Shown: positions 5,990-59,061 of the stretch, one piece after another
Layout: each line of letters opens with the position of its first letter
Position numbering within the stretch: position 1 is the stretch's first letter
DNA from: Escherichia phage EC6
Direction: 5' to 3' (one strand)
Sequence record: JX560968
DNA: 64,000 nucleotides
Notes under the pieces: model-generated
The model's input: the letters and a program-made list of their open reading frames with translations, nothing else
Databases searched by the model: none
Told to the model about the DNA's origin: nothing
Program-made: the position numbers and the translations under genes

Positions 5990-6048
5990 GCTTATTGGTT
6001 AAAGACTCTTTGATGTCTGAGAAGTTTTTGTACACTGTGACATGGAGC

Positions 6049-6342
6049 TTATTCATCGTTAAACTCTCTGACGAAGAAATAGTTGACTTTATTATTACCT
6101 ACCATAAGGTCAAAGCAGGTATTCTCAAAAGGTTTGTTGTAGGCATCGTATGAAGTGTACGTATCAGCTACTTGTTTAGTATTGAGCTTTTTACTTGATG
6201 GGTTTAAGAGGCCACCATACAGTTTCTTGATAGCCTCTTCTACAACAGACCAGATAATTTCGTCAGTAATTTCTTCGTACAGGTCAAGTTCACGCTCTAG
6301 TGAGAAGTCACAAATAGGGAAGATAACCTGTACTTTGCTCAT
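6049..6342 (-). CDS. hypothetical protein (97 aa)
   Basis: ORF in minus block. Confidence 0.45.
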   Translation of the reverse strand: MSKVQVIFPICDFSLERELDLYEEITDEIIWSVVEEAIKKLYGGLLNPSSKKLNTKQVADTYTSYDAYNKPFENTCFDLMVGNNKVNYFFVREFNDE

Positions 6343-17613: not shown

Positions 17614-17634
17614 TTCTATTTGCGGAGGCGCTTA

Positions 17635-19235: not shown

Positions 19236-19251
19236 TAGCTAGGTGAGAAGA

Positions 19252-20717
19252 ATGGCAGAAATTACAGAAACACAAGAAAGCTTACCACCATTTAGAATGG
19301 GTGAAGTAGGTTCTTTGGGTCTGAAGGTTAAGAATGGTAGAATCTATGAAGAACCTCGTCAGGCACTAAGGTTCCCTGAAAGTATTAAAACTTTCCAATT
19401 AATGATGCGTGACCCTGCTGTAGCAGCATCTGTAAATATTATTAAGATGTTTGTTAGAAAAGTCAACTGGAGATTCGTACCTCCAAAGGGAAAAGAGCAA
19501 GACCCTAAAATGCTTGAAAGAGCAGACTTCTTTAATTCTTTAATGGATGACATGGAGCATGATTGGGCAGATTTTATTAACTCTGTAATGTCATTCTGCA
19601 CTTATGGGTTCTGTGTTAACGAAAAGGTTTATAAGAAACGTCAGGGTAAAAAGGAAAGTACCAGTCAAAATTTGATGATGGTCTAATTGGGTGGGCTAAA
19701 TTACCAATCAGAAACCAATCGACACTTGATAAGTGGTATTTTGACGAAGACTTTAGAAAAGTTACTGGTGTTAGGCAGAATCTGAGAAATGTTTCACATA
19801 TTGCTGGAGCAATTAATCTTGGAGAAAGACCACTAACAAGAAAACTCCCACGAGCTAAATTCATGTTGTTTAAGTATGATGACGAATATGGAAACCCAGA
19901 AGGTCGTTCACCATTACTTAATGCCTATGTACCGTGGAAGTATAAAGTACAGATTGAAGAGTATGAAGCTGTTGGTGTTTCAAGAGACTTGGTAGGTATG
20001 CCAAAGATTGGTTTACCACCAGATTATCTGGATGAAAATGCAGAACCTGAAAAGAAAGCTTTCGTACAATACTGCAAAACTGTTGTTAATGATATGATTG
20101 CAAATGACAGAGCAGGTTTAATCTGGCCTAGATATATCGACCCAGATACTAAAGAGGATATTTTCGAGTTCTCATTAGTCTCTAGACAGGGTGCTAAAGC
20201 ATACGACACAGGTTCTATTATTGACAGATATTCCAAGCAGATTATGATGGCATTTATGTCAGATGTTCTTGCTATGGGTCAGTCAAAATATGGTTCATTC
20301 TCTCTTGCAGATTCTAAGACAAGCTTACTAGCAATGTCAGTAGATATTCTGCTGAAGCAAATTAAGAACGTAATTAACCGTGATTTAGTTGCACAGACTT
20401 ATGCTCTTAATATGTGGGACGATGAAGAACATGTACAAATCACATATGATGATATCGAAACTCCAGACCTTGAAGCAATTGGTTCTTATATTCAGAAAAC
20501 TGTTGCAGTAGGTGCTTTGGAAGTTGACAAAGAGCTATCTAACAAGCTTAGAGAGCATATTGGTCTTCCTCCTGCTGATGAGTCTCAGCCAGTATCTGAA
20601 AAGCTTTCTCCAAACAGTCAAAGCCGTTCAGGAGATGGTTATAAGACCGCTGGAGAAGGTACTGCAAAGACACCTTCAGCAAAAGACCCAAGCACAGCAA
20701 ATAAGGCAAATAAATAA
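19252..20717 (+). CDS. portal protein; reading frame interrupted at A5 run 19648-19652
   Basis: Position directly after terminase; the N-terminal 135 codons (frame 1) and the C-terminal ~355 codons (frame 0) are separated only by a -1 shift at GGTAAAAAGG; the combined ~490 aa is typical of portals. Confidence 0.55.
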
Positions 20718-36916: not shown

Positions 36917-38092
36917 ATGGCAGTAGGTGAAATTCAAATTAGTGCCTTGCCACAAGCGGCCTTACCAGTTGATTTAAGTGATATCTTCCACCTTAAGCAA
37001 GGTGTTGAAGATAAAAGATGTACGCTTGAACAGTTGTTAGCACCTCACGCATCTCTGAGGAATAACCCTCATGGTGTAACTAAATCACAAGTTGGTCTTG
37101 ATAATGTTATTAACTCTCTTCAATTAGTTGCAGCTAATAACTTATCAGACATTGTGAATGTTGCTGAGGCAAGAGCAAATCTACAAATTATGTCGTCAGA
37201 GGAAGTGAATAACTTAATTCAGCAACATATTGACGACAAAAGTAACCCACACAATACAACGAAAGCACAGGTTGGTTTAAGTAATGTTCAGAACTGGACA
37301 ACATCTAATCTGTACAATGAAGATGCTGATAAGTATGCTACCGCGAGAGCAGTGAATAATTTATACAAAGCTATCCAAACATCATATCCAGTAGGGACTA
37401 TTCATCTATCTGTTAACTCTGCTAACCCGTCCACTTACTTGCTTTGTGGAGGTACTTGGGAGTTAGTTTCTAAAGGTAGGGCGCTTGTTGGTTATGATAC
37501 AGAAGCTAGACCTGTTGGTTCAACGTTCGGTTCTCAGACTGTAGCATTAACAAATAATAATTTACCAGCACACACCCACTCTATCTATTTAACAGGTGGT
37601 GGTCATACACACTCTGCAAGTGTATCTATCTCTAGTTTTGATTATGGTTCAAAGAGTACATCAACTTTTGACTACGGTACGAAGGCAACTAACAGTGCTG
37701 GTGCTCACACCCACACATTTAGTGGAACGACAAGTAATGAGGGTAACCACAACCATAGAGTACCTCTGAGGGGTAATGATAGAAGTGGGTTAAATGCTAT
37801 TACCGCATCTGCTGATGCTGGGGTTGGTAATGCTTCGTATACTGATTTAGCTGGTGCTCACACCCATAGCTTCTCAGGTACAACTGCATCATCTGGTGCT
37901 CATAGTCATACTGTTGCAATTGGTGCTCACAGCCACACTGTTAATATTGGTTCACACAGTCATACGGGCACTGTTACTGTTTCTAGCTCTGAGCATACAC
38001 ACTCAGGGACATCTGGTTCTGTTGGTGGTGGTCAAGCTTTCAGTGTTGAGCAGCCATCTTTTGTAGTATATGTGTGGCAGAGAACAGCTTAA
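36917..38092 (+). CDS. tail fibre protein with His-x-His repeat tip domain
   Basis: Repeated NPHGVTKSQVGLDNV / NPHNTTKAQVGLSNV fibre motifs; C-terminal run of HTHS, HSHT, HNHR motifs resembling the metal-binding tips of T4-type long tail fibres. Confidence 0.65.
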   Translation: MAVGEIQISALPQAALPVDLSDIFHLKQGVEDKRCTLEQLLAPHASLRNNPHGVTKSQVGLDNVINSLQLVAANNLSDIVNVAEARANLQIMSSEEVNNLIQQHIDDKSNPHNTTKAQVGLSNVQNWTTSNLYNEDADKYATARAVNNLYKAIQTSYPVGTIHLSVNSANPSTYLLCGGTWELVSKGRALVGYDTEARPVGSTFGSQTVALTNNNLPAHTHSIYLTGGGHTHSASVSISSFDYGSKSTSTFDYGTKATNSAGAHTHTFSGTTSNEGNHNHRVPLRGNDRSGLNAITASADAGVGNASYTDLAGAHTHSFSGTTASSGAHSHTVAIGAHSHTVNIGSHSHTGTVTVSSSEHTHSGTSGSVGGGQAFSVEQPSFVVYVWQRTA

Positions 38093-38102
38093 TTTCTTTA
38101 CA

Positions 38103-38122
38103 GGGGCTTTATAGCCCCTTTT
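38103..38122 (+). terminator. rho-independent terminator
   Basis: Hairpin GGGGCTTTATAGCCCC followed by TTTT. Confidence 0.55.
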
Positions 38123-38138
38123 AAGAGGAAAATTTATA

Positions 38139-39764
38139 ATGGCAGATTACAAATTGAGTCAATTAAACTCAATCGACACAATTCGTTCAGAAGACCTATT
38201 GCACATCAGAGTTAAGAAAAGACCTGAAATGTTGGGTGACGAAGACCGTAGAATGACCTATCAAGACTTCTTAGCTTCTTTCAAACTAGAAAGGTTTGTT
38301 CAGATTGCTGGGAGCACTATGACGGGGGATTTAGGTATTGTCAAGTTACTTTACGGTGGTAAGGTAGTATTTGACCCTACAGATTCTTCTGAGATTACTC
38401 TTGGGGATATTTTAAAGACTTTTAAAATCAACTCAAATGGGCTTAAACTCACTATTGCAGATGCCACAAGGTCAGCAACTGTTTATCATACTTTGAATAA
38501 ACCAAGTCCTAATGAACTTGGCATGAGAACTAATGAAGAGAATGATGCAAGATATTCAAGGCTTGCTGTTACAAATAACTTCAGTATTAGGCAAGCAATT
38601 GTAACTGATGGTGAGCAGTTAACTCTTAAGAAGGCAACCAATACAGGTGCTTCATATATTCAAGGTAGAGATGCTAATAACCAGCAAACTTGGTATGTTG
38701 GACAGGGAAATGCAAACAGTACTAATGTTTATTTGTACAATCATGCTACTGGTGCAATGTTAACCCTTGATGCAACAGCAGCATTTAACAAGTCACTTAG
38801 AATCGTTGGTCAAGTTCAACCTTCGGATTTCTCTAACTTAGATGCTAGATACTTCACTCAGACAGTCGCTAATCAGAGATTTGCACAGTTAGCTGGCAAT
38901 AATACTTTTACAGGTGCTAATACATTTAATAACTATATCAGTGTGAACTCTAATGCTGCTGCTATCGTGCTAAAAAATAAGTCTGCTAATGAGTCTTTGT
39001 ACATCCTAGCAAAAGATGTTGAAAACAATAATCTGTGGTTTATTGGTAAAGGTAGTGCAAATGACAATATCACATTTTATGATTACAAGGGCAATACTTC
39101 TATTGTATTAAACTCGTCTGGTGCTGCATTCAGCAAGACTGTAAAAATCACTGGTCAAGTCCAACCTTCAGATTGGACTAACATTGACTCTAGATATATT
39201 CCGGCAGCTACTTTGAGCAATCTTGCTAAAATTAATGTAGCTAACACATTTACCTCCCAGCAAATTATCCAAGCAAATGGTGAAGCTATTAGGCTAAAAA
39301 ACTCTTCTGAGAACTCACCATTGTATATCAGAGCACAGGACAACACTGGTGCTTATAGGTGGTATGTAGGTAATGGCTCGGGGGGTGATGATGTCACCAT
39401 CCGCAATCACAAGACAGATTGTGAGGTTATCCTATCTAGTGTCGTTGCTATTAATAAAACATTAAGCATCACTGGTCAAGTTAAACCCTCAGATTTCTCT
39501 AACTTAGATGCTAGATATTACACGCAATCTACCGCAAACTCTAGGTATATGCTTGCTTACTCTTCTGGCAGTGGTACAGAGGTGGGTGAGAGTGATGGTA
39601 TTGTTTGGAATGCTAAAACTGGTCTGTATAATGTGTATGATAAATCTGGTGGCGCAACACAGCTAGTCTACCATATGTATCAGGGTGCAAGTTCTACACC
39701 ATCTGCACAGTTTAAGTTTATCTACAGGAATGGTGGTAGTTTTTTACAGGACAGCACGAGATAG
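38139..39764 (+). CDS. tail fibre protein with three internal repeats
   Basis: 541 aa; three copies of ITGQV(Q/K)PSD(F/W)(S/T)N(L/I)D(A/S)RY plus repeated LYI(R/L)A(Q/K)D motifs. Confidence 0.6.
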   Translation: MADYKLSQLNSIDTIRSEDLLHIRVKKRPEMLGDEDRRMTYQDFLASFKLERFVQIAGSTMTGDLGIVKLLYGGKVVFDPTDSSEITLGDILKTFKINSNGLKLTIADATRSATVYHTLNKPSPNELGMRTNEENDARYSRLAVTNNFSIRQAIVTDGEQLTLKKATNTGASYIQGRDANNQQTWYVGQGNANSTNVYLYNHATGAMLTLDATAAFNKSLRIVGQVQPSDFSNLDARYFTQTVANQRFAQLAGNNTFTGANTFNNYISVNSNAAAIVLKNKSANESLYILAKDVENNNLWFIGKGSANDNITFYDYKGNTSIVLNSSGAAFSKTVKITGQVQPSDWTNIDSRYIPAATLSNLAKINVANTFTSQQIIQANGEAIRLKNSSENSPLYIRAQDNTGAYRWYVGNGSGGDDVTIRNHKTDCEVILSSVVAINKTLSITGQVKPSDFSNLDARYYTQSTANSRYMLAYSSGSGTEVGESDGIVWNAKTGLYNVYDKSGGATQLVYHMYQGASSTPSAQFKFIYRNGGSFLQDSTR

Positions 39765-40509
39765 GTATGGTTTTGAGCAGGCATGGGCTAAAATCTATAC
39801 AGACCAAGATAAACCAACCCCTTCAGAGATTGGTGCATACACTAAAGCTGAAACTGACCAGAAGATTGCAGAAGCAATCAGTGACTCTACAGACTTGAAT
39901 AAAATCTATCCAGTAGGTATTGTAACGTGGTTTAACAGTAATGTTAACCCTAATACAGCACTTCCTGGTCTAACTTGGACGTACCTGAATAATGGTGTTG
40001 GTAGAACTATCAGAATTGCAGCAGCAAATGGTTCAGATGTTGCTACAACTGGTGGTTCAGACTCTGTAACGTTATCTGTTGGTAACTTACCTTCACATAC
40101 GCATAGCTTCTCTGCTACCACTTCATCATTTGATTATGGTACTAAGACTTCTAGTACAACTGGTAACCATAACCATAACAGAGGTACTATGGAAATCTCA
40201 GGTGCATTTGGTTGGTTCAGAAGTGACAATAGTTCATTCTACACTGCGAGTGGAGCATTCGTGATGGGGAGCAGTCAGGCTTCGCATGGCTTCACAGGCT
40301 CTAACTTCACTTATGGTGCTCCTGTTGATTTCCACGCGTCAAGAACTTGGACAGGTGCAACCAACACAACAGGTAACCATAGCCATACTGTAGGTATTGG
40401 TGCTCACAGCCACACAGTTAGTGGTAACACAGGTGGTACTGGTTCTGGTTCAGCATTTAGTGTTACTAACCAGTTCTACAAGTTAATGGCTTGGGTAAGA
40501 ACTGCTTAA
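39685..40509 (+). CDS. tail fibre tip-domain protein (His-x-His repeats); may be fused to the upstream fibre via the T6 run at 39740-39745
   Basis: C-terminal ~230 aa is paralogous to the tip of the 36917 product (LPSHTHSF...GNHSHTVGIGAHSHTV...AFSVTNQ); the frame is open back into the upstream gene with no good RBS or ATG of its own. Confidence 0.45.
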   Translation: MQVLHHLHSLSLSTGMVVVFYRTARDRYGFEQAWAKIYTDQDKPTPSEIGAYTKAETDQKIAEAISDSTDLNKIYPVGIVTWFNSNVNPNTALPGLTWTYLNNGVGRTIRIAAANGSDVATTGGSDSVTLSVGNLPSHTHSFSATTSSFDYGTKTSSTTGNHNHNRGTMEISGAFGWFRSDNSSFYTASGAFVMGSSQASHGFTGSNFTYGAPVDFHASRTWTGATNTTGNHSHTVGIGAHSHTVSGNTGGTGSGSAFSVTNQFYKLMAWVRTA

Positions 40510-41154: not shown

Positions 41155-41161
41155 AGTTTAA

Positions 41162-41190
41162 GGCTCCTTTTTACGGGAGCCTTTTTGTTT
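41162..41190 (+). terminator. rho-independent terminator at convergent junction
   Basis: Hairpin GGCTCC-tttttac-GGGAGCC followed by a T-run, between the plus-strand late block and the minus-strand block. Confidence 0.55.
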
Positions 41191-42089
41191 TATTTACCTA
41201 CTGACAAAGGTGCTTCAATCTTTCCTGCATGTTGATAGTTGCTAATACCACCAATAAAGTCACTTGCAGTGAGATGTTTTAAGTCACTTAAAGTGTTAAG
41301 TGGGATACCAATCTCAAAAGTTGGTGCATGGAACTCTTCATTGTTCATCAGTTCATAAACCTGCTTCATGTGGTTCTGATAAATCTGAGTATCTCCAAAG
41401 ACACCTATCAAATATCGTGGAGTGTATCCAGTCATCTTACAAAGAACTTCCAGAATAAAACCATAAGATGCAATATTAAACGGAAGTCCTAAAAAGGTGT
41501 CTACAGAACGCTGATACCATTGTAAGTCAACTTCACCCTCGTTAGTGATATAAATCTGAAACAGAACATGACAAGGTGCTAGAGCCATTGAGTTTGCTGC
41601 AATATCTGCTGCATTCCAAGCATTAACAAGCATGTAACGGTCTGTGATATCACCCTTCATCTTCGTTACTAAGGTCTCTAACTGGTCTACAACACAACCA
41701 TTATGACCTTCAAAGTTTCTCCACTGAACTCCATAGATTCTTCCACCTGCATCTTCTAACCAATCTTGTTCAGAAGAATAATTAGAGCTTAACCAACGTT
41801 TAAAATCATCTGACCAGATAGTCCAGCGTTCCCCATCATTTTCACTCCAAGTACGATAACGGAGTTCACCCAGTTTATTCTCACCGTTCAGGAACCATAA
41901 AGCTTCCCCAATAACTTGCCGTGTAAACACCTGCTTAGATGTTAAGAGCGGGAAACCAGTTCGCATATCAAAACGAAACTGAGGTGGAGCAAATGCAGAG
42001 ATAACATCTCCAGTTCGTGTAGTACGTAGTTCACCAACTGATAAAACATGGTTCAGGATATTTTTGTAACTTGAATCTGCTTGTGACAT
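41190..42089 (-). CDS. thyA: thymidylate synthase (ThyA-type)
   Basis: 299 aa; active-site context ALAPCHVLFQ, plus conserved TTKxxxxRxxxxELLWF-like and DLGPVYG-like equivalents. Confidence 0.85.
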   Translation of the reverse strand: MSQADSSYKNILNHVLSVGELRTTRTGDVISAFAPPQFRFDMRTGFPLLTSKQVFTRQVIGEALWFLNGENKLGELRYRTWSENDGERWTIWSDDFKRWLSSNYSSEQDWLEDAGGRIYGVQWRNFEGHNGCVVDQLETLVTKMKGDITDRYMLVNAWNAADIAANSMALAPCHVLFQIYITNEGEVDLQWYQRSVDTFLGLPFNIASYGFILEVLCKMTGYTPRYLIGVFGDTQIYQNHMKQVYELMNNEEFHAPTFEIGIPLNTLSDLKHLTASDFIGGISNYQHAGKIEAPLSVGK

Positions 42090-47674: not shown

Positions 47675-48231
47675 TTAGTGTACTTCAAGCCAGCTTTTAC
47701 CAACCTTACCAGTACCTGTAACAAGCGTTTCTTTCTTAAGACCTAAGTTTTTAGAAGCTTGCCCATAATACCAGTCAGTAACTGCTTTCACTTCTGCCGT
47801 CATACTTTCTGGACATTCCCAACTCGTCTCGTCGTGATAGGAGCACAATAAACGAGCACCTATAGCTGGTTTGCGACCGTTCAACTTCATCAAACCTTCG
47901 TCAATCATACGACGGCAAGCAAGGTTAATTGCTTCATTCTGAACCTGCGCCTCACTACCCATTAGGGTATAGTTTAATAGTTTATGCGGTGATTTACACC
48001 ATAACCACGCCCCAGCGACCTGAATGTACCCACCCTTAGCGATTGCAGCACTCTTGCCGAAAACCTCTTCTAATGCCTTCTTAGTGGCCTTAAAATCGGC
48101 TTCTAAGTTATCAAGTAGTTTCTTAATCTTTGGTAGACGCATATAGTAGGTCTGCTTAGTTAATGCACCTTCCTCTGTAGAAGCTGCCTTAATGGTCTTG
48201 GCAAACTTCTCATCACCTGCACCGAACAATA
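47675..48231 (-). CDS. DNA polymerase (family A), 3-prime exon / C-terminal part
   Basis: Begins LFGAGDEKFAK, the second half of Pol A motif B (compare T7 YGFLYGAGDEK), and contains motif C LLCSYHDE; no independent ATG (the frame enters via TTG). Confidence 0.65.
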
Positions 48232-49036
48232 CATCTGGTCAATACACTCGCAAGGTGTACCAGTTCTCTTATGAACTTCTCCGCATTTCTACGGAGTGTC
48301 GGACTATATCACGCAGTAGTAATACTACCGTTGCACTTGGGAATGGTCATTAGCTTACCACCCTACTCTACTCAGTTCATACATTAAGTATGCTTTTCGA
48401 TAGTCTCTGAACGTTTCTCTGTTAGGAACTCTAAAATACTATTATTTACTAAGGTATGCAATTGCTCTCTTCATGTTCTCTATACTATCTGAGAACAGCC
48501 CAAGACCTCTGTTACAGTTGTGACACAGCATACCTCTTACCTGTCCTGTTTTGTGGTCATGGTCAACAACCAGCTTGGCTTTATGTCTTGAACCATCCAT
48601 GATAAAACCTTCACCACCGCAGATTTGACACTTGTGACCACACTTACTTAGTAACTCTTCGACCTCTTCTCTTTCTAAGCCGTAAGTCCTTAAGTAATAG
48701 TTCTTTACCCTTCCCTTTTCTCCACAAGCAGAACTGCAATACGTCTGTCTTGCTGTTCTAGGTGTAAACTGGTTATTGCAGCTTGGACATATTTTCTCTA
48801 TGACACGACTTGCTGCTCTTCTGTCTACTTCAAGAACGCAGTTTCTACAACGTTTTTGATTGTACTGATATGGCTTAAACTCTTCGCCACATCTGGAACA
48901 AACTCTTTCTTTATAACCTGCCATTGTCTCTCTCCCATTTCTACTATAGGAGTCCTAACAGAGACTTCGCTGCTGATTACCATATCTTTACAGACTTAGG
49001 CTTCCAGCAATTCACAACGTTTTACATGCGCCACTG
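48232..49036 (-). mobile_element. intervening sequence in DNA polymerase gene (group I intron-like) carrying an endonuclease ORF; boundaries approximate
   Basis: Splits Pol A motif B between RKKAKNGIYA and LFGAGDEK; an in-frame stop follows 17 codons into the insert; contains a free-standing Endo VII/HNH ORF; the proposed junction obeys the exon-U / intron-terminal-G rule. Confidence 0.5.
48442..48924 (-). CDS. HNH-superfamily endonuclease (Endonuclease VII-like), intron-encoded homing endonuclease candidate
   Basis: Signature VVDHDHKTGQVRGMLCHNCNRGLG plus two N-terminal Cys4 zinc-ribbon-like motifs; lies wholly inside the polymerase insertion on the same strand. Confidence 0.65.
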   Translation of the reverse strand: MAGYKERVCSRCGEEFKPYQYNQKRCRNCVLEVDRRAASRVIEKICPSCNNQFTPRTARQTYCSSACGEKGRVKNYYLRTYGLEREEVEELLSKCGHKCQICGGEGFIMDGSRHKAKLVVDHDHKTGQVRGMLCHNCNRGLGLFSDSIENMKRAIAYLSK

Positions 49037-51179
49037 ACGCATAGATACCATTCTTAGCCTTCTTACGGCCTTTAGTTATCTCGTGAAGAAGTTCTTCATC
49101 CTGAGTTTCTCTACAACGAATAATGTCATCCTCTTTGTTCAATGCAAAGTAGATGCTGTTAAGCGTATGTGCATCAGTACCTGTATACACCTCATATAAG
49201 TCATTATCCATATCGTAACGACAATACTTGTCAGTCTCTGGATTGAGGTACTTGTCAAGATGTTTGCAGTAGTACCGTCCATCATCCTGTTTAGTGAACT
49301 CGACAAACTCTTTACCTTCAGTTACTGCTTTAGTGAACTCTTTATCACCCATAAAGTTACACAGTAAAACAAGCTGTGCAGAGTTCTGGTCAACTGAAAC
49401 GATGTTAGTCCCTTCCTCACAAATCCACACCTCCCTCATAGGTGCTCCATAGACAGCAGCACCAGATGGTACGTTTACAATACCATACTGCGTCATACGT
49501 CCAGTTGAAGTACCAAACACCATTGCACCAGCACTAAGGCGACCATCTGGACGAATCTGGTTCAACCAACCTTTTTCATCATCCTTTGAGTTCTCAATAG
49601 TTCTGCGTCGGTGCATCAAAGTATAGTACTTAGCAATCTTCTGTCCAAGTTCACCTTCAATCGTATCATAAGATGATTCAGTAAGTTTTGGTGAAGTACG
49701 GATTAAGCAAGGCTCAAGCAAATCTGTGTACTTCTTCACAGACCAGTTATGCTCAATGTACTGTACACCTTCATGTTCAACATAACTCAAACCACACCGC
49801 TCAACCATTTCCTGCCACTTAGGATGCTTTGTAATCATCTTTTTATTGTCTTTGAAACGACAAACTTTGACAGGGTGACCATCTGAGTCTTTCTTGTAGT
49901 TCCAGTCATCTGGAATCCAACCAACTGATTTCAAGTAGTCTTTAACAACTGCTACCTGAGTCATACGAGAAACTTCAAACTCAATTGGTGTATATGGTGC
50001 ATCAATCAAACCTGTGTAGCGACTTGACTCAAGTTCAAAGTGGTTAACAACGTGGCTGTTATAGTACTTCACAGTTTTGACTGTTTTTACTGGCTTCCAG
50101 TCTTTGCATTTCTTACCAATCTTTGCATTCAACTCATTGCAAATTGCACGAGCATCCTTCATTGCTACAAAGCCTTCCTTGTACTCTTCACCAGTTACAG
50201 AGTTGGTTGGTGTATAGCAATTTCTCTTTTCAATGTTAAAAATCTTTGTAGTTGGCTTACCAAATGGCTTGATTTCGTATGTCTGCATCTCACCGTTACG
50301 TACCTGCTGACGATACTTTGTCTTAGGATACTTGGTAATCCTCTTCAGTCCATCTGCATGACCAAATGTTTCAACATACTCATTCCAAGCTTTTGCAAAC
50401 TCTTCTCCAGTGACTTTACCTTTGGTCTTAATAGTTGGAGGAAGATGTGGTTCAACCTCTGAAGCAAGCTCATTAGTCAACTTGTCAAGTTCCTTTACAT
50501 GGAACTCCATAAGCTCTTTATCAGCTTTCCAACCATTGATAGCTTGTTGACTCATCCAGAAAGATGTTTCTTTAGCTCGCATGTAAGTTTCATAAGTGTC
50601 TATACCACACTTCTTAAGCTTGAGATACTCGTTATCAAGTGCCCGTTTAGTTTTGGCGTTAATACGGATATCTTCTACAACACGAGTGAAGATTTCTGCA
50701 TTCCACACACCCCAATGTTCAATCTCTGGTTTACGAACACCAACACGAGCACCCCATGCAGCCAAACCATGAGCACCTTTATAACCCTTTGGAGTTGGTC
50801 TATCCATCCACTGAACACGAGACTGGATAAGAGAATCCTGAAAGAAATTACTCCACGGTTTACACTTTGGATTATCAAAGTTCCATAAATCAGGTGCAAT
50901 GTGATTGAAAACCCACCAGTCATAACCGAGACCGTTGTGGATGCAAAGACGTTTTGCCTTTAACGCAAACTCAATACCTTCACGTAAGCCACCCTTGATG
51001 TACTTGGTATACTTGTGACCGAGGATAGGCTCATCTGTAAAGACCCATACAGGTGGCTCTTCATCATCAGATTTATAGTCTGCGAAAGCCATTACGTGCA
51101 CTTTAGTGAACTCAAGGAGTAAACCATCAGTTTCTGTATCACCAACTAAATGTAAGTTTTTAAAATCTACGTTTTCCAT
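49037..51179 (-). CDS. DNA polymerase (family A), 5-prime exon with 3-prime-5-prime exonuclease domain
   Basis: Exo I motif VGDTETDG; palm motif A-like SVDQNSAQL; ends in the first half of motif B (GRKKAKNGIY); the internal ATG at 51179 has a GAGGGAG RBS and is preferred over the annotated 51209 start. Confidence 0.7.
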
Positions 51180-51236
51180 TTTTACTCCCTCTAAAATCAT
51201 TAACCTCATACATTACTGCAAAAAATTATAAAAAGC

Positions 51237-51860: not shown

Positions 51861-52124
51861 ATGAATATCGATGTAGAAAAGATGCTTGAAGAGAAAGGTG
51901 TTGATGAAGCATTCTTAATCAATGCCGTAGAAAGCATGGCTATGATTCTTCGTGGTAATAACTACACAGAACAGTTTATGCCTGCAAGCTATAACTTGCC
52001 TGAAGACAAGTCTGATAACGGTGCTTTTGCAGAACAGGTTAATATGATGTTGACAGACACTACACTTGCTCTGGCATCTATTGCGGTTGGTGTTGATGCA
52101 CTTGCTGAGTTCAGTTTTTTATGA
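51861..52124 (+). CDS. hypothetical protein (87 aa)
   Basis: ORF; may continue into the next ORF across the T6 run at 52115-52120. Confidence 0.4.
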   Translation: MNIDVEKMLEEKGVDEAFLINAVESMAMILRGNNYTEQFMPASYNLPEDKSDNGAFAEQVNMMLTDTTLALASIAVGVDALAEFSFL

Positions 52125-52671
52125 AATGCAAAAGAATGACTATATCAGGATGTCAGACGAAGATAAGGAACTGTTGCTGACTAAGGACACTGATTTCATT
52201 ATTGATACACTTATCTCATCAACAAGTGCTGTTATGGCTGTTCTTGAGAAGCGTATGGAAGAGAAACTTTCACGATATGAAAAACTTGATTGGGGCGTAG
52301 AAGAATTAAACCCACGAATCAAAGAGATTATCCAGCAAACTAAAGAGTCTTTGGAAGAAGCTGTTGAAAATGACTCTGTAGCTGACATTGAACCACTTCA
52401 GGTGAAAGTTGCACTGATGATTCCAGCTATCTCTACGATGATGAATATCGTTGCACTAATCCAACTGTCACAGATGATGGGTGTGAGTATTGAGTTCATT
52501 GAGGAAATGACTGGTGGCGTTAGTATGCAAGCAATCAATGATGTTTTGGTGAACATTGGTGCTTCAATCATTGAAGAGAAACTACGCATTAACTTCGGTG
52601 ATGATTTTGTGAAGCAAATCTCAGCTATGGCTGAAAAGAGTCTGCTGAGCAACTGCACTAAGTCTTTATAA
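52066..52671 (+). CDS. hypothetical protein (201 aa; start uncertain)
   Basis: Frame overlaps the upstream ORF by ~60 nt; the first in-frame ATG downstream lacks an obvious RBS. Confidence 0.4.
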   Translation: MLWHLLRLVLMHLLSSVFYEMQKNDYIRMSDEDKELLLTKDTDFIIDTLISSTSAVMAVLEKRMEEKLSRYEKLDWGVEELNPRIKEIIQQTKESLEEAVENDSVADIEPLQVKVALMIPAISTMMNIVALIQLSQMMGVSIEFIEEMTGGVSMQAINDVLVNIGASIIEEKLRINFGDDFVKQISAMAEKSLLSNCTKSL

Positions 52672-52681
52672 ATCTTACAAG

Positions 52682-52705
52682 CCTCCTTAGTTGGGGGCTT
52701 TTTAG
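52682..52705 (+). terminator. rho-independent terminator-like hairpin
   Basis: AGCCTCC...GGGGGCT followed by T5. Confidence 0.4.
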
Positions 52706-52722
52706 TAATTAAGGGAGATAAA

Positions 52723-53466
52723 ATGAGTAATATTATCGCATTTACTGGAAAGGCACGTTCTGGAAAAGACACCTCATGTTCTATTGTGAAGAACATCTTA
52801 GAGGATGAGTATGGCTACAATGTTGCTGTAATGGCCTTTGCAGACAACCTTAAACTATCTGCATCAAAGATATTTGACTTGACTTGGAATGACCTGTACG
52901 GTGAAACTAAAGAGACTCCACAGGTATTTGACTTATCATATTATGAACTGATGTTTAAAGTTACGGAAGCTATGGAGTTCACCTTCAGAGATGAACGTTA
53001 TCATATGGACTTCAAGCTTATGTCAGAGTTAACCGGACGATTAATCATGGAGCTTAAGAAGGTTGCTAAACCTACCATACTAACACGTCTGGGATTTAGT
53101 AAAAAGTATAAATTCTCATCAAGACAAATTCAACAAATTTGGGGTACTGAAGTTGTCCGTAAGGTAATGGGCGACAAGTTCTGGTCTAAAGACCTTGAAA
53201 AAAGAATGGTTAGATTCCATGAAATGTGCTCACTTAGAAATCAGTATGGTTTTGTCTTAATCAGTGATTTAAGATTTGACTCTGAAGCTGAATGGCTGAG
53301 TAGATTTGCACACCAAACTATTGAAGTAAAAAGAGACAATGTGGACAAAGTTTCATCACATGTTTCAGAAAATGGGATTTCTACAAAATATGAGCGTGAC
53401 ATTATTCATAATAATGGTACTCTTGCAGACCTTGAGAACAAGCTAAGAGCCATCATTAAAGTTTAA
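52723..53466 (+). CDS. deoxynucleoside monophosphate kinase (T4 gp1-like)
   Basis: P-loop FTGKARSGKDT at the N-terminus and C-terminal NNGTLADLENKLRAII resembling T4 dNMP kinase. Confidence 0.65.
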   Translation: MSNIIAFTGKARSGKDTSCSIVKNILEDEYGYNVAVMAFADNLKLSASKIFDLTWNDLYGETKETPQVFDLSYYELMFKVTEAMEFTFRDERYHMDFKLMSELTGRLIMELKKVAKPTILTRLGFSKKYKFSSRQIQQIWGTEVVRKVMGDKFWSKDLEKRMVRFHEMCSLRNQYGFVLISDLRFDSEAEWLSRFAHQTIEVKRDNVDKVSSHVSENGISTKYERDIIHNNGTLADLENKLRAIIKV

Positions 53467-53474
53467 AAGAGAGA

Positions 53475-53675
53475 ATGAAGATGAGAGTAAAAGACAATTT
53501 TAAAGTTATTGACCACCGTTTAGTGGAACTCTCATCTCTTTCCAATGAGGTAATGATTGAACGTCTTAAGAGAGTTGAATCACGAAGGAAAGAGATTGCA
53601 GATGAAATTCATGAACTGGACAAGATTGAAAATGGATTGAAGGCAGAACTACAACGAAGAGGTGCTAATGTCTAA
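53475..53675 (+). CDS. hypothetical protein (66 aa)
   Basis: Small helical ORF upstream of primase-helicase. Confidence 0.35.
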   Translation: MKMRVKDNFKVIDHRLVELSSLSNEVMIERLKRVESRRKEIADEIHELDKIENGLKAELQRRGANV

Positions 53676-55653
53676 AGGTCGTAAATTGAAAGAGGCTGGT
53701 CAGTTTGTTGGTCATTGCGCATGTCCACGTTGTGGTTCATCAGATGCTGGTTCAATCTACCATCATGACGATGATTCTTATTCAATGACTTGCTTTAGCT
53801 GTAACAAAGGTTTCCCAGAGTGGGATTTTGATAAAGGACAAATCGTGAGCACTTATTCTACTGGTTCAGATAATAAAAACCGTACTTTTCGTGGAATGGA
53901 TTTAGACGATGTAAAAGAAAACCTAGAAGCGATGGACTTGAAAGACAGGAAGATTCCTGCAAAAGTTCTTGAGCGTTTGGGTATTAAGGTTGACATTGAC
54001 AGTGATGGTGAAATTGACGCGCATTTCTACCCAACTTACAAACGCAATGAAGATGGCAAGCTAGAGCATGTTGGCTACCGTGTTCGTCACCGTTACCCAG
54101 AAGACCATCCAAAAGAGCACCTACGAGGTAAGTTAAAAGACTTTTCTGGTGGTGTTGGAGACATTAAAGGTGAACTGGCAATGTTCGGTTCATGGATTGC
54201 TCCAGAAGGTGGTAACCGTCTATTCATCTGGGAAGGTGAGATGGAATGTGCGACAGCAATCTATATGACTTCTCTTGCGATTAAGGACAAATCTCGTCGT
54301 AAGAATTACTGTCATGTATCTGTTCCGTCAGGTGCAAACATCAAGTCTATCAAAGATAACTATCAGTACATCACATCATTTGATGAAATTTACTTGTGCT
54401 TTGATAACGATGAAGCAGGTGCTAAAGCTACCAAAGAGGCTGCTGGTATCTTACCTATTGAGAAAGTTCGTTTATTCCAGTATCCAGAGGGTGTAAAAGA
54501 CCTTAACGAATGGTGGACAAAGTTCTATAAAGAGAAAGACACAGTTCTGGAAGGATTTAAGCAGCGTATCTACAACGCACCTCGTTATTGCCCTGCTGGT
54601 ATCAAGAACTTTGCAGATGGTTTTGAGGCAATGAAGAACCGTGGTCAGATTCCATTGATTCCTTTCCCAGAATCTTTCGGGGATTTGAACAGACTGACTT
54701 ATGGTGGTTACGGTTTAGGCGAGATTACGACTATCGCAGCACCATCTTCAGTAGGTAAGTCAGCTTACACTCGTGAGATGATTTATTCAGCTTGGAAAGA
54801 AACTGATTATAATATCGGTGTAATTCCTGTAGAAGATACCTATGAAGAGTTGATGGAGATGCTCTGTGCAATCCACCTAAGCAAGCAGATTTCTGAGATT
54901 CCTTATGACGAACGTGATTGGGATGAATTGAAGGAAGCACACGCAGAGCTATCTAAAGGTCGTCGTATCCATATCGTTGACCATCAAGGGGCAATTGACC
55001 AAGATAACCTGCTGGAGTTTGTTGACTATCTTGTTAATAGCTTAGACTGTAAGATTATTATTCTTGACCCTATTACGTTGGCTCTGTCACGTTCTGATAC
55101 GGATGAAGAGGAAGTTTTGTCTGAGCTATTGCGTCGTTGCAAACGCTACCAGTATGCGCAGGTAAACGTATGTCACGTTCGTAAGAGTGCAGGTGGTCAG
55201 AAAGCCAACTCTGAAGGTGGAGATATCTCTGAAGAGGATATTAAGGGTTCTGGTGCATACTTCCAGATTTCTATGAACAACATTCTGTTAATGCGTAACA
55301 AGGTTGACCCAGACCCTGTTAAGAAAAACTTGACAAAAATCAAGTTAACTAAGTGTCGTCGTCATGGTAAGTCAACAGGTATTGCTGGCCATACTTGGTA
55401 CAATCCAGATACAGGACGTCTCATCAAAGCTTCTGGATGTGGTGTTGACATTGATGGTGCAGCAGAAAATATTCGGCAACAGTTTGGTATTGGTGAAGCT
55501 GAAGACCATTACGATGACTCTTTACCTCATTATGAGGATGAAGTGTTTGACCGTGAGACTGGTGAAGTCTATACTGAAGAACAGCGTCAAAGCTCAACGA
55601 TTCCACCTGTATTAATTGAGGATGCAGATGACTGCCCGTTTGAAACTGAGTGA
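53668..55653 (+). CDS. bifunctional DNA primase / DnaB-like helicase (T7 gp4-like)
   Basis: N-terminal zinc-binding motif CxxC...CxxC (GHCACPRCGS...CFSC), central TOPRIM-like region, helicase Walker A APSSVGKSAY and downstream helicase motifs. Confidence 0.75.
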   Translation: MSKGRKLKEAGQFVGHCACPRCGSSDAGSIYHHDDDSYSMTCFSCNKGFPEWDFDKGQIVSTYSTGSDNKNRTFRGMDLDDVKENLEAMDLKDRKIPAKVLERLGIKVDIDSDGEIDAHFYPTYKRNEDGKLEHVGYRVRHRYPEDHPKEHLRGKLKDFSGGVGDIKGELAMFGSWIAPEGGNRLFIWEGEMECATAIYMTSLAIKDKSRRKNYCHVSVPSGANIKSIKDNYQYITSFDEIYLCFDNDEAGAKATKEAAGILPIEKVRLFQYPEGVKDLNEWWTKFYKEKDTVLEGFKQRIYNAPRYCPAGIKNFADGFEAMKNRGQIPLIPFPESFGDLNRLTYGGYGLGEITTIAAPSSVGKSAYTREMIYSAWKETDYNIGVIPVEDTYEELMEMLCAIHLSKQISEIPYDERDWDELKEAHAELSKGRRIHIVDHQGAIDQDNLLEFVDYLVNSLDCKIIILDPITLALSRSDTDEEEVLSELLRRCKRYQYAQVNVCHVRKSAGGQKANSEGGDISEEDIKGSGAYFQISMNNILLMRNKVDPDPVKKNLTKIKLTKCRRHGKSTGIAGHTWYNPDTGRLIKASGCGVDIDGAAENIRQQFGIGEAEDHYDDSLPHYEDEVFDRETGEVYTEEQRQSSTIPPVLIEDADDCPFETE

Positions 55654-55722
55654 TAGTTATAAAAGAGAGGGGTTCATACCCTTCTTTGAAGAAAAAGTTT
55701 AAATGAATTTCAGGAAGAGTGT

Positions 55723-55751
55723 TTGACAAAGGTTGATAGGTTCTATAGAAT
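55723..55751 (+). promoter_or_regulatory. sigma70-like promoter (TTGACA-N17-TAGAAT)
   Basis: Consensus -35 with 17-nt spacer to TAGAAT. Confidence 0.5.
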
Positions 55752-55904
55752 GCTCTACATGAAATGTGATGGAGGCGTTGAGGTAGAAGAAAAGTTCCAT
55801 CACAGTATAATAACAGTCACTATTACTATACCTCGACATAATATTGGTTGGCTGTTTATAATTAAAGAAAATGTGTTTGAATATCAAGTATATCGGAGAA
55901 TATC

Positions 55905-56054
55905 ATGAAACACTCTAAAGCATTTGAAAAAGTTTTTGGGGATTCCTTAAAAGCCACTGCTGGTAAACCAGCAAAATACTATGAAGAGAAGCGTGTAAGA
56001 ACTGGAAAAACTGCACGTAAAGCAGCTTCTAAAGATAAGCACAACTTCCAGTAA
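55905..56054 (+). CDS. small basic protein (49 aa)
   Basis: GGAGA RBS 7 nt upstream of ATG; Lys/Arg-rich; sits between two consensus promoters. Confidence 0.35.
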   Translation: MKHSKAFEKVFGDSLKATAGKPAKYYEEKRVRTGKTARKAASKDKHNFQ

Positions 56055-56061
56055 TTAATGT

Positions 56062-56090
56062 TTGACAATAGAGTATCAACAAATTAGAAT
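56062..56090 (+). promoter_or_regulatory. sigma70-like promoter (TTGACA-N17-TAGAAT)
   Basis: Consensus -35 and -10 with 17-nt spacer upstream of the SSB-like gene. Confidence 0.5.
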
Positions 56091-56984: not shown

Positions 56985-57003
56985 TCTCTAAAAGTTACTT
57001 TAA

Positions 57004-57030
57004 AGCCCTGTACTTAGTATGGGGCTTTTT
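57004..57030 (+). terminator. rho-independent terminator
   Basis: Hairpin AGCCC...GGGGCT followed by T5. Confidence 0.5.
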
Positions 57031-57046
57031 CATATGGAGAGTCACA

Positions 57047-58094
57047 ATGGAGAAGTACACATTAAAAAAACCTTCCCGATTCAGTTACACATGTTTTTAT
57101 CGACTCTGACAGTATTGCCTATAAAGGGGCTTGTGTAGTTGAGAAAGCAAAATATAAATACGTCAATAAACTCACAGCAGAAGAGTCTGAACCATTTGAT
57201 AATGCAAAAGATGCTGCAAGATGGTTAGCAGACCAGAGAATCCTTGTGGAAGAGCTTGGCCTAGCATTTGATGAAGATGAATGGGAAAGACAGACTTGGA
57301 AAGAAGCTAAGAGTGAAAAAGAAGCTATCATGGCTACTCAACAGGTGCTTCAGGAATGGCTTAAGGTTGTTGGTAAAGAAAGAACTTGGGTAGGTTATTT
57401 AACAGAGAAAGGTGTGCATAAACATAAAGACATTAAAGGTCTTGAGCACCAATATCAAGGTAACCGCAAAGATGCTGTCACACCAACACACTTAGTTGCT
57501 TGTCGTGAATATCTTCTGTCAAGACCAGAGTTCAAACTAATTCTTGATGGATTTGAAGCTGACTCTATCGTGATTGCTAAAGCTGAAAAGATGGGTAAAA
57601 AGGCTGCCTTAATGAGTATTGATAAAGACCTTCGACAAGCTGAAGGTACTTACTGTATTGATATGACTTATGAAAAGTCGCCTTTGATTTTCATTGCTGA
57701 TAACAACGTTGGTGAAATTTGGGATTGTCCAATAAAATCGACACCAAAAGCTAAGAAGACAGTTGGGGTAGGTTTTAAATTTCTTTGCTATCAAGCCGTG
57801 GCTGGTGATAATGCGGATAATTATTTCGGTTTAAAGGGTGTTGGTAAGGTTACTATAATGAAAGCCCTTGAAGGTAAAACCACTTACAAAGAGTGTCTTG
57901 ATGCAATTTATGAGCTTTATGCTAAGAAAGAGTCATACACTTATGTCTCGTGGGATGGTCAAACAATTACCAGAACACCTTTAGAGTTAATGCAGCAACA
58001 CTTTTTCTTAGCTTATCAGGAAAGAAACAAGAAAGATGATTTCACTTTTGATAAGTATGGGTGGACACCAAATGTTAACTCAACAAACTCTTAA
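57047..58094 (+). CDS. flap endonuclease / 5-prime-3-prime exonuclease (RNase H-like); reading frame interrupted at A7 run 57064-57070
   Basis: ATG at 57047 (MEKYTLKK) then a +1 frame change into HVFIDSDSIAYKGA (compare T4 RNase H ICLIDFSQIAL) and the later helix-hairpin-helix motif AGDNADNYFGLKGVGKVT. Confidence 0.6.
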
Positions 58095-58563
58095 AGAATA
58101 CCTACACTATGACCCCGAAACAGGGGTCTTTACTTGGATTAAGAAGTCTGCTAAGCACACAAAAATTGGTTCTGTTGCAGGTACAAACTTAAAAGGTTAC
58201 ATCCGAATTTACTTGTTTGGTAAAGGGTACTATGCGCATTCATTAGCTGTCCTATATATGGATGGTTATCTTCCTGAGTGTGTTGACCACAAGAACCATG
58301 TAACTCTAGACAATCGTTGGTTAAATCTGAGGGCATGTACACTATCAGAGAACCAATGCAATAGGTTGCTTAACAAAAACAATAAATCCGGTGTCAAAGG
58401 TGTGTACTACAACAAGAGGTATGGTAAGTGGTCTACACAGATAACTTTTCAGAAGAGAGTTTACTTCTTCGGCAACTATGACACGATTGAGGAAGCAGCA
58501 GAAGTTGTGAATAGAGAACGTCAACGTTTACACAAAGAGTTTGCTAATAAAGGTGATGAATGA
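58072..58563 (+). CDS. HNH homing endonuclease with AP2 DNA-binding domain
   Basis: HNH_3-type motif GYIRIY...HSLAVLYMDGYLPECVDHKNHVTLDNRWLNL and AP2-like GVKGVYYNKRYGKWSTQITFQKRVYFFGNYDTIEEA. Confidence 0.6.
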   Translation: MLTQQTLKEYLHYDPETGVFTWIKKSAKHTKIGSVAGTNLKGYIRIYLFGKGYYAHSLAVLYMDGYLPECVDHKNHVTLDNRWLNLRACTLSENQCNRLLNKNNKSGVKGVYYNKRYGKWSTQITFQKRVYFFGNYDTIEEAAEVVNRERQRLHKEFANKGDE

Positions 58564-59061
58564 GAAAAATTAAAGGTTTTGGTAATTGCCCTGAGTATGG
58601 ACATTGGATTTCACTTTGTGGGGAAATTGACCCAGCAAAGCATTTTGGTTTTGTCTACCTAGTGTACTGCAAAAAGACTGGGCAGTACTATTTGGGTAAG
58701 AAACAGTTTAACAGTGTGACCAAAAGAAAAGTTGCTGGGAAGACTCGGAAGAAGGTAGTCACTAAGGAGAGTGATTGGATGACTTATGAGACTTCTTCTG
58801 AGTATATTAAAAAACGATATTGAGAGCTTTGGAAAAGAATTTTTTGACTTTTACATTATTCAAACCTACTACACAAAAGGTGGCCTAGTCTATGGTGAAG
58901 CAAACCTTCAACATAAATTCGATGTAATGACAAAAAGGATTGACTCTAAGCTCAGACTCTTCTACAATGCCAACATTGCAGCAATTAAGTTTATCACTAA
59001 AGAAACTTATGAAGATGCTGAAAAAAGAATCCATAAGGTAATGAAAGCAAATTGTGCTTGA
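58560..59061 (+). CDS. GIY-YIG endonuclease-like gene, frame broken at A6 run 58809-58814 (possible pseudogene)
   Basis: GIY-YIG-like GFVYLVYCKKTGQYYLGKK at the N-terminus; the downstream frame (+1) carries the rest of the domain. Confidence 0.4.

What the first reader, a model, noticed from the sequence alone, without database searches (positions are those of the whole stretch)
57047..57110. Flap endonuclease/RNase H gene requires a +1 frame change in an A7 run
The only ATG with an upstream context (57047, MEKYTLKK) is in a frame that stops after 21 codons. The conserved FEN N-terminus HVFIDSDSIAYKGA is in the +1 frame, which has no start codon of its own after the stop at 57063-57065. The switch point is the A7 run at 57064-57070.
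Basis: seen in the sequence. Interest (0 to 1): 0.45.

Follow-up and report, generated by a model that had tools for sequence, protein, structure and literature searches.

The report
Sequencing-error frameshift in phage exonuclease gene
The broken start of this phage's flap-endonuclease gene is almost certainly a one-base sequencing error next to a run of A's in an old 454-based genome assembly (phage EC6), not a programmed frameshift, so it is ordinary.

Summary
The sequence facts are right. ATG 57047 has a GGAG ribosome-binding site, and its frame stops at TGA 57107-09. The exonuclease frame opens after TAA 57063-65 and has no ATG/GTG/TTG before GTG 57246. An A7 run lies at 57064-70.

The biological reading fails. 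The window is a Felixounavirus and matches Escherichia phage EC6 (JX560968), which was sequenced with 454 plus Illumina. Relatives encode one intact 346-348 aa exonuclease from the same ATG. This holds for 254 phage records by similarity, for every record whose annotation or sequence I inspected, and for 11 independent contigs.

The nearest relatives also carry A7, in frame (TTAAAAAAACTTCCC). The window's extra base is therefore a C (57071/57072) just after the run, not an extra A. The CC variant was found in no collection scanned.

The same window has about eight more one-base indels next to A/T runs that no compared relative shares. They break the terminase large subunit and the portal, among other genes. 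Both homopolymers of 7 nt or more in the window have such an insertion beside them. A near-identical independent contig lacks the three nearest indels.

Verdict: assembly artefact (about 0.9). A real mutation rescued by slippage is a small residual possibility.

The parts
57003..57031 (+). Hairpin followed by a T run (AAAGCCC...GGGGCTTTTT) after the upstream SSB-like gene. It is a likely intrinsic terminator and separates the exonuclease gene from the gene before it.
   Evidence: Sequence. It is invariant in the alignments. Several relatives annotate a 'terminator' under the 81-nt match (H58, H91, H93, H94). The simple scanner did not flag it; its loop looks longer than the scanner's 3-8 nt limit (my reading of the sequence).
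57036..57039 (+). GGAG Shine-Dalgarno sequence, 7 nt upstream of the true start codon.
   Evidence: Sequence. Conserved in all relatives aligned.
57047..57070 (+). True 5' end of the exonuclease gene: ATG plus codons 2-8 (MEKYTLKK). The same start codon is annotated in relatives.
   Evidence: Relatives annotate one CDS of 1047 or 1041 nt beginning at the homologous ATG. Ten further contigs have a 346-348 aa gene called 63 nt after the SSB-like gene's stop.
57064..57070 (+). A7 homopolymer. This is the normal length in the nearest relatives. It is probably the cause of the sequencing miscall in the next flow.
   Evidence: P54, LF110P4, UAB_Phi87 and Sl26 all read A7 followed by a single C. It is the only A run of 7 or more in the window.
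57071..57072 (+). CC doublet, one C of which is surplus. This is the frameshifting insertion. Relatives have a single C.
   Evidence: Alignments. All 60 listed hits of the 81-nt query span 80 nt or fewer. The CC 30/32-mer has 0 exact matches in IMG/VR, metagenome contigs and genome contigs. The single-C 31-mer has 3 matches in IMG/VR.
57071..57109 (+). Out-of-frame tail of the 20-codon ORF (PSRFSYTCFYRL, then TGA). This is a product of the insertion, not a real peptide.
57072..58094 (+). Remainder of the 5'-3' exonuclease (FEN) coding sequence, codons 9-348 plus the stop. It is 98.8% identical in protein to the VSe11 exodeoxyribonuclease.
   Evidence: tblastn (aa 9-348 map to 57072-58091 in a single frame). 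Translation. PHROG 107 'exonuclease' at E 4.4e-66. Matches to the Taq polymerase 5'-nuclease motifs GFEAD, DKDL and GDxxDN..GVKGVG.
57246..58094 (+). The truncated 282-aa ORF (GTG start) that the GenBank record of phage EC6 annotates as '5'-3' exonuclease'. It is an annotation work-round for the frameshift. It lacks the N-terminal strand that carries the FIDSD aspartates.
   Evidence: ORF 57246..58094. (exact match to AFU62417.1 / YP_009151328.1 of Escherichia phage EC6, on one contig of 86,231 bp).

Best explanation
The window is the published genome of Escherichia phage EC6, a FelixO1-like Felixounavirus. Its 5'-3' exonuclease (FEN, T7 gene 6-like) gene is an ordinary uninterrupted gene that starts at ATG 57047. 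The apparent frameshift comes from one spurious C (57071 or 57072) written into the assembly just after the A7 run. Flow-based (454) sequencing typically produces this kind of homopolymer-linked miscall.

The real phage most probably reads ATG GAG AAG TAC ACA TTA AAA AAA CTT CCC..., giving MEKYTLKKLPDSVTHVFIDSD... and a 348-aa enzyme. No recoding is involved.

Shown: the insertion was absent from every relative inspected, and similar errors are spread through the record. Inferred: the error arose in base calling or assembly rather than in the phage.
For: 1. Relatives are intact.
- 254 phage records match this region.
- Every annotated record inspected has one intact CDS from the same ATG.
- So do 11 independent metagenomic or isolate contigs.

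2. The surplus base is a C, not an A.
- The nearest relatives read A7 followed by one C, in frame.
- All 60 listed hits of the 81-nt query are at least one base shorter, and none of the 217 matching records reaches 100% identity.
- The CC variant is absent from IMG/VR, metagenome contigs and genome contigs. The single-C variant is present in IMG/VR.

3. The same window holds eight more isolated one-base indels inside conserved genes.
- Each is absent from VSe11, FelixO1 and UAB_Phi87, and each lies next to an A/T run.
- Sites: 5411, 5966, 18765 (terminase large subunit), 19650 (portal), 52114, 52634, 55692 and 58815.
- Terminase and portal are each split into two ORFs. A plaque-forming phage is not expected to survive both breaks. 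In the Felixounavirus Bas63, structural and replication genes score mostly as essential (PMC11482910).
- The same ORF test between relatives shows no breaks in these genes.

4. Both homopolymers of 7 nt or more in the window (A7 at 57064, T7 at 5404) have an adjacent window-specific insertion.

5. A near-identical independent assembly lacks the neighbouring indels. Logan contig ERR13731452_3521 has an identical primase. Over 52225-56086 it differs from the window by one substitution and two one-base A-run indels (52634, 55692). It also lacks the insertion at 52114, just upstream of that stretch. In all three places it agrees with the in-frame relatives.

6. The source is identified and used 454.
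- The truncated 282-aa product is an exact match to phage EC6 protein AFU62417.1.
- The EC6 genome announcement states 454 plus Illumina sequencing, Newbler and CLC assembly, and manual merging (PMC3569278).
- 454 errors concentrate at and near homopolymers (PMC2323236).
- Four of the five coding insertions are a C placed directly after an A run of 5 or more on one strand. This fits the 454 flow order T-A-C-G, which I give from my own knowledge.
Against: - No raw reads were available, so the error is inferred rather than observed.
- The authors say they remapped reads to correct errors.
- No near-identical independent assembly that spans the exonuclease start itself was found. L028 stops about 960 nt short, and L029 is only 94% identical.
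- An inserted C after an A run is a less classic 454 error than a miscounted homopolymer.
Confidence: 0.9

Rival explanations
1. The extra C is a real, recent mutation in the EC6 stock. The exonuclease gene is then either inactivated, with host DNA polymerase I 5'-nuclease substituting, or expressed at a low level by chance slippage. That slippage could be RNA polymerase dropping one A in the A7 run (giving MEKYTLKNLPDS...). It could also be tRNA-Lys slipping +1 on AAA-AAA-C, which would give exactly the wild-type MEKYTLKKLPDS...
For: - The sequence as deposited has the insertion.
- An A7 run immediately 5' of the surplus base is a plausible low-efficiency slippage site (general knowledge of transcriptional slippage at A/T runs).
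- Skipping one base there restores the exact protein of relatives.
- Some phage 5'-nucleases are dispensable. T4 rnh is one (own knowledge), and T7 gene 6 is less essential in some hosts.
Against: - The insertion was seen in no relative or contig inspected.
- It sits in a record with about eight other homopolymer-linked frameshifts, including terminase and portal, which cannot all be real.
- Three neighbouring indels are contradicted by a near-identical independent assembly.
- 454 data were used.
Confidence: 0.07
2. A programmed, selected +1 recoding event (ribosomal frameshift or transcriptional slippage) that regulates exonuclease synthesis. This is the reading the finding's title suggests.
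For: - A good start codon and SD lie in one frame and the conserved enzyme in the +1 frame, with a homopolymer at the junction.
Against: - There is no conservation. Relatives are in frame at this spot, and many lack the A7 altogether, reading AACAAAAC instead.
- No stop or rare 'hungry' codon occupies the A site.
- No SD-like stimulator lies about 3 nt upstream. The only GGAG is 12 nt before the run.
- No stable downstream RNA structure is predicted: -9.6 kcal/mol, z = +0.6 against shuffles.
- The 20-codon zero-frame product has no homologue or evident function.
Confidence: 0.02
3. The exonuclease is made from an independent start codon in the downstream frame, such as the GTG at 57246 used in the GenBank annotation or a non-canonical start.
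For: - GenBank and RefSeq annotate a 282-aa product from GTG 57246.
Against: - No ATG, GTG or TTG lies between 57066 and 57246.
- A start at 57246 removes 66 residues, including the first beta-strand with the FIDSD aspartates. I line this strand up by eye with LLVDGHHLAYR of the Taq 5'-nuclease, from memory of that sequence. The motifs that one search aligned lie further downstream.
- All full-length cluster members listed are 346-355 aa.
- The homologous GTG is internal in every relative.
Confidence: 0.01

Closest known systems
Exodeoxyribonuclease / 5'-3' exonuclease of FelixO1-like phages (FelixO1 gene '6', NP_944975.1; VpaE1 AIW02364.1; UAB_Phi87 AFQ96130.1)
   Same: Same gene at the same position, between the SSB-like gene and the homing-endonuclease genes. 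Same ATG and GGAG. Protein identity is 98.8% over residues 9-348.
   Different: The window has one extra C after codon 8. That breaks the frame. Relatives are uninterrupted at 346-348 aa.
FEN / 5'-nuclease family (Taq and E. coli Pol I 5'-nuclease domain, T5 D15, T4 RNase H, T7 gp6)
   Same: Shared acidic motifs and the helix-3-turn-helix segment (GFEAD, DKDL, GDxxDN..GLKGVGKVT). PHROG 107 'exonuclease' at E 4e-66.
   Different: Very divergent. Pfam scores only the C-terminal SAM-fold domain, at 21 bits against a cut-off of 40. No structure prediction was run here.
Programmed +1 frameshifting (E. coli prfB) and transcriptional slippage recoding (Thermus dnaX A9, IS-element A-runs)
   Same: Two overlapping frames are joined at a slippery-looking homopolymer, and the downstream frame has no start of its own.
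   Different: Those cases are conserved across orthologues and carry stimulators (an in-frame stop plus an upstream SD for prfB, or longer runs for slippage). Here the arrangement was seen in this record only, and the stimulators are absent.
Homopolymer-linked indel errors of 454 pyrosequencing (Huse et al. 2007, PMC2323236)
   Same: One-base insertions and deletions at or next to A/T runs, more frequent at longer runs, scattered through coding and non-coding sequence alike. The EC6 genome was built partly from 454 reads.
   Different: No real difference. The one gap is that the reads themselves could not be inspected.

Membership tests
FEN / 5'-3' exonuclease family | Significant sequence match to a family profile | tested here: met
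   PHROG 107 'exonuclease' at E 4.4e-66, covering residues 2-345. The protein belongs to a 1110-member cluster named exodeoxyribonuclease or 5'-3' exonuclease.
FEN / 5'-3' exonuclease family | Pfam 5_3_exonuc domains above the gathering score | tested here: inconclusive
   Only PF01367 (the C-terminal SAM fold) matched, at 21.4 bits against a cut-off of 40. The N-terminal domain PF02739 was not reported.
FEN / 5'-3' exonuclease family | Conserved acidic metal-binding motifs and the H3TH motif | tested here: met
   phmmer aligned GFEADSIV, SIDKDLRQ and AGDNADNYFGLKGVGKVT to residues 108-148 and 180-214 of Taq polymerase. The N-terminal FIDSDSIAYK resembles Taq LLVDGHHLAYR. That comparison is by eye, from memory of the Taq sequence.
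Programmed +1 ribosomal frameshift (prfB type) | The out-of-frame arrangement is conserved among orthologues | tested here: not met
   All relatives inspected are in frame.
Programmed +1 ribosomal frameshift (prfB type) | Slippery P-site codon followed by a stop or slow codon, with an SD-like stimulator a few nt upstream | tested here: not met
   The codons after the run are CCT TCC CGA, with no stop. The nearest GGAG is 12 nt upstream of the run. No stable downstream structure is predicted (z = +0.6).
Transcriptional-slippage recoding | A long A/T run at the frame junction, conserved together with the frame offset | tested here: not met
   An A7 run is present, but relatives with A7 are in frame and many relatives have AACAAAA instead. 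Slippage efficiency could not be measured.
Flow-chemistry (454) homopolymer sequencing error | The indel is unique to one record and sits at or next to a homopolymer | tested here: met
Flow-chemistry (454) homopolymer sequencing error | Many similar indels in the same record, including in genes the phage cannot lose | tested here: met
   Nine coding indels in all. Terminase and portal are split. A near-identical contig lacks three of them.
Flow-chemistry (454) homopolymer sequencing error | The record was produced with such a platform | tested here: met
   The window's truncated product equals EC6 AFU62417.1. The EC6 paper states 454 plus Illumina with Newbler (PMC3569278).
Flow-chemistry (454) homopolymer sequencing error | Raw reads or Sanger traces disagree with the deposited base | not testable with these tools
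   No read data were accessible.

The most novel reading that the evidence does not exclude
The EC6 stock really carries A7CC. It then keeps a working exonuclease only through low-level +1 slippage at the run. This could be tRNA-Lys shifting on AAA-AAA-C, which would recreate the exact wild-type protein, or RNA polymerase dropping one A. That would make it a freshly arisen frameshift rescued by decoding infidelity.
Probability: 0.03. Interest if true: 0.4.

Novelty: not a real feature. Interest (0 to 1): 0.05.

Why it matters
The value is mainly housekeeping. The deposited EC6 genome (JX560968 / RefSeq) carries a truncated '5'-3' exonuclease' (282 aa) and several other split genes: terminase large subunit, portal, a GIY-YIG endonuclease and others. 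These look like sequencing errors.

Anyone mining this record for recoding events, pseudogenes or protein families would be misled. A scan for frameshifts should first ask whether the record has many homopolymer-linked breaks.

If, against the odds, the insertion were real, it would be a small natural example of a frameshift mutation rescued by slippage at an A run.

Tried and rejected
- **Independent start in the exonuclease frame.** None exists before GTG 57246. That start would delete the catalytic N-terminus.
- **Programmed-frameshift stimulators.** No stop or hungry codon, no SD at the right spacing, and no downstream structure (z = +0.6).
- **The CC variant elsewhere.** Exact 30/32-mers gave 0 hits in IMG/VR, metagenome contigs and genome contigs.
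- **A near-identical independent assembly across the exonuclease start.** Exact look-ups of three versions of the HNH endonuclease found nothing. The primase look-up gave a near-identical contig that ends about 960 nt before the site. The MazG-like look-up gave a contig only 94% identical.
- **Literature.** No paper found mentions frameshifts in EC6 or in Felixounavirus exonucleases.
- **Automated ORF-versus-genome frame test.** It needed manual filtering. Antisense ORFs, overlapping loci and the endonuclease-split DNA polymerase produce false 'frame changes'.
- **Site 5411.** It lies in a locally divergent stretch, so its exact nature is less certain than the other sites.

Full report
**What is in the sequence.**
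- A hairpin followed by a T run (57003-57031) closes the upstream SSB-like gene. A GGAG at 57036-39 follows, and seven bases later comes ATG 57047.
- That frame reads MEKYTLKKPSRFSYTCFYRL and stops at TGA 57107-09.
- The frame one base to the right opens after TAA 57063-65 and runs to 58094. It encodes ...LPDSVTHVFIDSDSIAYKGA... and the rest of a 5'-3' exonuclease.
- It has no ATG, GTG or TTG before GTG 57246.
- The junction holds an A7 run (57064-70), the only A run of 7 or more in the window.

**What the gene is.**
- The repaired protein (MEKYTLKK + LPDSV...) matches PHROG 107 'exonuclease' at E 4.4e-66.
- It matches the Pfam 5'-3' exonuclease C-terminal domain only weakly, at 21 bits against a cut-off of 40.
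- It aligns to the GYEAD, DKDL and GDxxDN..GVKGIG motifs of the Taq polymerase 5'-nuclease.
- It is a divergent FEN-family enzyme. Relatives annotate it as exodeoxyribonuclease (gene 6).

**Where the window comes from.**
- The region matches 254 Felixounavirus (FelixO1-like) phage records at 80-97% identity.
- The 282-aa product from GTG 57246 is an exact match to AFU62417.1 / YP_009151328.1, '5'-3' exonuclease [Escherichia phage EC6]', seen on one 86,231-bp contig.
- The window is therefore the EC6 genome (JX560968).
[quoted passage not shown] Assembly used Newbler 2.6 and CLC, with manual merging of contigs (PMC3569278).

**How relatives read the same spot.**
- FelixO1, VpaE1, CRP22, P54, UAB_Phi87, Sl26, FSL SP-107 and VSe11 all annotate one uninterrupted CDS of 1041-1047 nt from the homologous ATG.
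- Ten independent contigs that encode an identical SSB-like protein each have a 346-348 aa gene called 63 nt downstream of it. An eleventh contig shows the same.
- In alignment, the closest relatives read TTAAAAAAA-CTTCCC, which is A7 followed by one C, in frame, giving MEKYTLKKLPDS. Others read TTAACAAAA-CTTCCC. The window reads TTAAAAAAACCTTCCC.
- The surplus base is therefore a C immediately after the run, not an extra A. The A7 is the ordinary in-frame state.
- All 60 listed hits of an 81-nt query across the site are at least one base shorter than the query. None of the 217 matching records reaches 100% identity.
- The CC-containing 30/32-mer is absent from IMG/VR, the metagenome contigs and the genome contigs. 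The single-C version occurs three times in IMG/VR.

**The rest of the window.**
I aligned the whole 64 kb to VSe11 and re-checked each site against FelixO1 and UAB_Phi87. Eight further isolated one-base indels lie inside well-conserved genes. Each is absent from all three relatives, and each touches an A/T run.

| Window position | Change in the window | Gene affected |
|---|---|---|
| 5411 | insertion next to T7 | vse11_028 homologue |
| 5966 | C inserted after A5 | vse11_029 homologue |
| 18765 | A6 shortened to A5 | terminase large subunit |
| 19650 | A6 shortened to A5 | portal |
| 52114 | G inserted before T6 (a C after A6 on the other strand) | ORF98 homologue |
| 52634 | A5 shortened to A4 | ORF98 homologue |
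| 55692 | A6 shortened to A5 | ORF102 homologue |
| 58815 | C inserted after A6 | ORF107 homologue (GIY-YIG endonuclease, labelled 'NAD synthetase') |

- Terminase is split into 390 + 132 aa ORFs, and portal into 147 + 284 aa ORFs.
- Both homopolymers of 7 nt or more in the window (A7 at 57064, T7 at 5404) have such an insertion beside them.
- The same ORF-versus-genome test between relatives gives no breaks in these genes (after discarding antisense ORFs, locus-overlap artefacts and the endonuclease-split polymerase).
- A phage that forms plaques cannot plausibly carry frameshifted terminase and portal genes. In the Felixounavirus Bas63, structural and replication genes score mostly as essential (PMC11482910).

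**A near-identical independent assembly.**
- The exact EC6 primase is also encoded on Logan contig ERR13731452_3521.
- Over window 52225-56086 that contig differs from the window by one substitution and two one-base A-run indels (52634, 55692). It also lacks the insertion at 52114.
- In all three places it has the in-frame length seen in every relative.
- Three indels alongside so few substitutions in coding DNA is not how real divergence looks. It is how base-calling errors look.
- The contig ends about 960 nt before the exonuclease start, so that site itself is not covered.

**Mechanism of the artefact (inferred).**
- 454 errors cluster at and near homopolymers, as miscounted runs and as single-base insertions nearby (PMC2323236).
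- The window shows both kinds: four shortened A runs and several insertions beside runs.
- Four of the five coding insertions are a C placed directly after an A run of 5 or more on one strand.
- In the 454 flow cycle T-A-C-G (my own knowledge), C is the flow that follows A. A large A signal bleeding into the next flow would add a C, or turn C into CC as here.
- This detail is suggestive, not proven.

**Recoding considered and rejected.**
- A programmed +1 frameshift or slippage site should be conserved with its frame offset. It is not.
- No in-frame stop or hungry codon follows the run.
- No SD-like element lies a few bases upstream. The only GGAG is 12 nt before the run.
- The 70 nt downstream fold no better than shuffled sequence (z = +0.6).
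- A start at GTG 57246, as in the GenBank annotation, would delete 66 residues, including the FIDSD strand.
- If the extra C were real, low-level slippage on the A7 run could still leak some full-length enzyme. Skipping one base at AAA-AAA-C would recreate exactly the wild-type MEKYTLKKLPDS. Loss of one A in the mRNA would give K8N. I keep this as a small residual possibility.

**Verdict.**

| Explanation | Confidence |
|---|---|
| One-base assembly error in a 454-era record (observation correct, recoding interpretation not) | about 0.9 |
| Real but isolate-specific mutation | about 0.07 |
| Programmed recoding | about 0.02 |
| Independent downstream start | about 0.01 |

Interest is low. The practical outcome is that JX560968 should be treated as carrying several homopolymer errors.

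Noticed in passing
window 17620-19235: The terminase large subunit is split into two ORFs (17620-18792 and 18837-19235) by an A6-to-A5 deletion at about 18765. Relatives have one 533-aa ORF.
   Followed up: yes
window 19243-20717: The portal protein gene is split (19243-19686 and 19863-20717) by a one-base deletion at about 19650 in an A run. Relatives have one 488-aa ORF.
   Followed up: yes
window 51861-52671: The homologue of FelixO1 ORF98 (266 aa, labelled 'minor tail protein') carries a +1 insertion at 52114 (before T6) and a -1 deletion at 52634 (A5 to A4). A near-identical Logan contig (L028) has neither.
   Followed up: yes
window 55628-55908: The small gene overlapping the 3' end of the primase gene (FelixO1 ORF102, 93 aa) is broken by an A6-to-A5 deletion at 55692. 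It is intact in L028 and in all relatives compared.
   Followed up: yes
window 58560-59061: The gene that relatives label 'NAD synthetase' (ORF107, 165-166 aa) is split into 87-aa and 91-aa ORFs by a C inserted after A6 at 58815. Precomputed Pfam hits on its intact homologues are PF19835 SegE_GIY-YIG, so the 'NAD synthetase' name in GenBank records looks wrong. It is probably a GIY-YIG homing endonuclease.
   Followed up: partly
window 5132-6056: Two small minus-strand genes (homologues of vse11_028 and vse11_029) each change frame. One break is next to the only T7 run in the window (5404-5410) and the other is after an A5 run (5966). The 5411 site lies in a locally divergent stretch and is less clear-cut.
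   Followed up: partly
window 58036-58563: The HNH/AP2-type endonuclease gene overlapping the 3' end of the exonuclease gene is far more divergent than its flanks (157 differences in one 500-nt bin against 10-35 elsewhere, versus L029). It is absent from many relatives, where the exonuclease gene is followed directly by the GIY-YIG gene. This is typical of a mobile homing endonuclease.
   Followed up: partly
window 47678-51209: The DNA polymerase coding sequence is in two pieces (about 49038-51209 and 47678-48232, minus strand) separated by roughly 800 nt. The same holds in VSe11, where an endonuclease gene sits in the gap. UAB_Phi87 and FelixO1 have one continuous 909-aa gene.
   Followed up: partly
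window 37900-40200: The tail-fibre region is only about 75% identical to VSe11 and has many indels, while neighbouring structural genes are 93-99% identical. This is the expected host-range hot spot. The EC6 paper's remark that tail-fibre genes are 'lacking' is probably an annotation issue.
   Followed up: no
window 4018, 9932, 11891, 28212, 41160-41191, 44717, 46050, 56993: Further one-base length differences in A/T or C runs occur in intergenic or terminator sequence relative to VSe11 or L029. They may be more sequencing errors or real variation. Without reads the two cannot be told apart.
   Followed up: no
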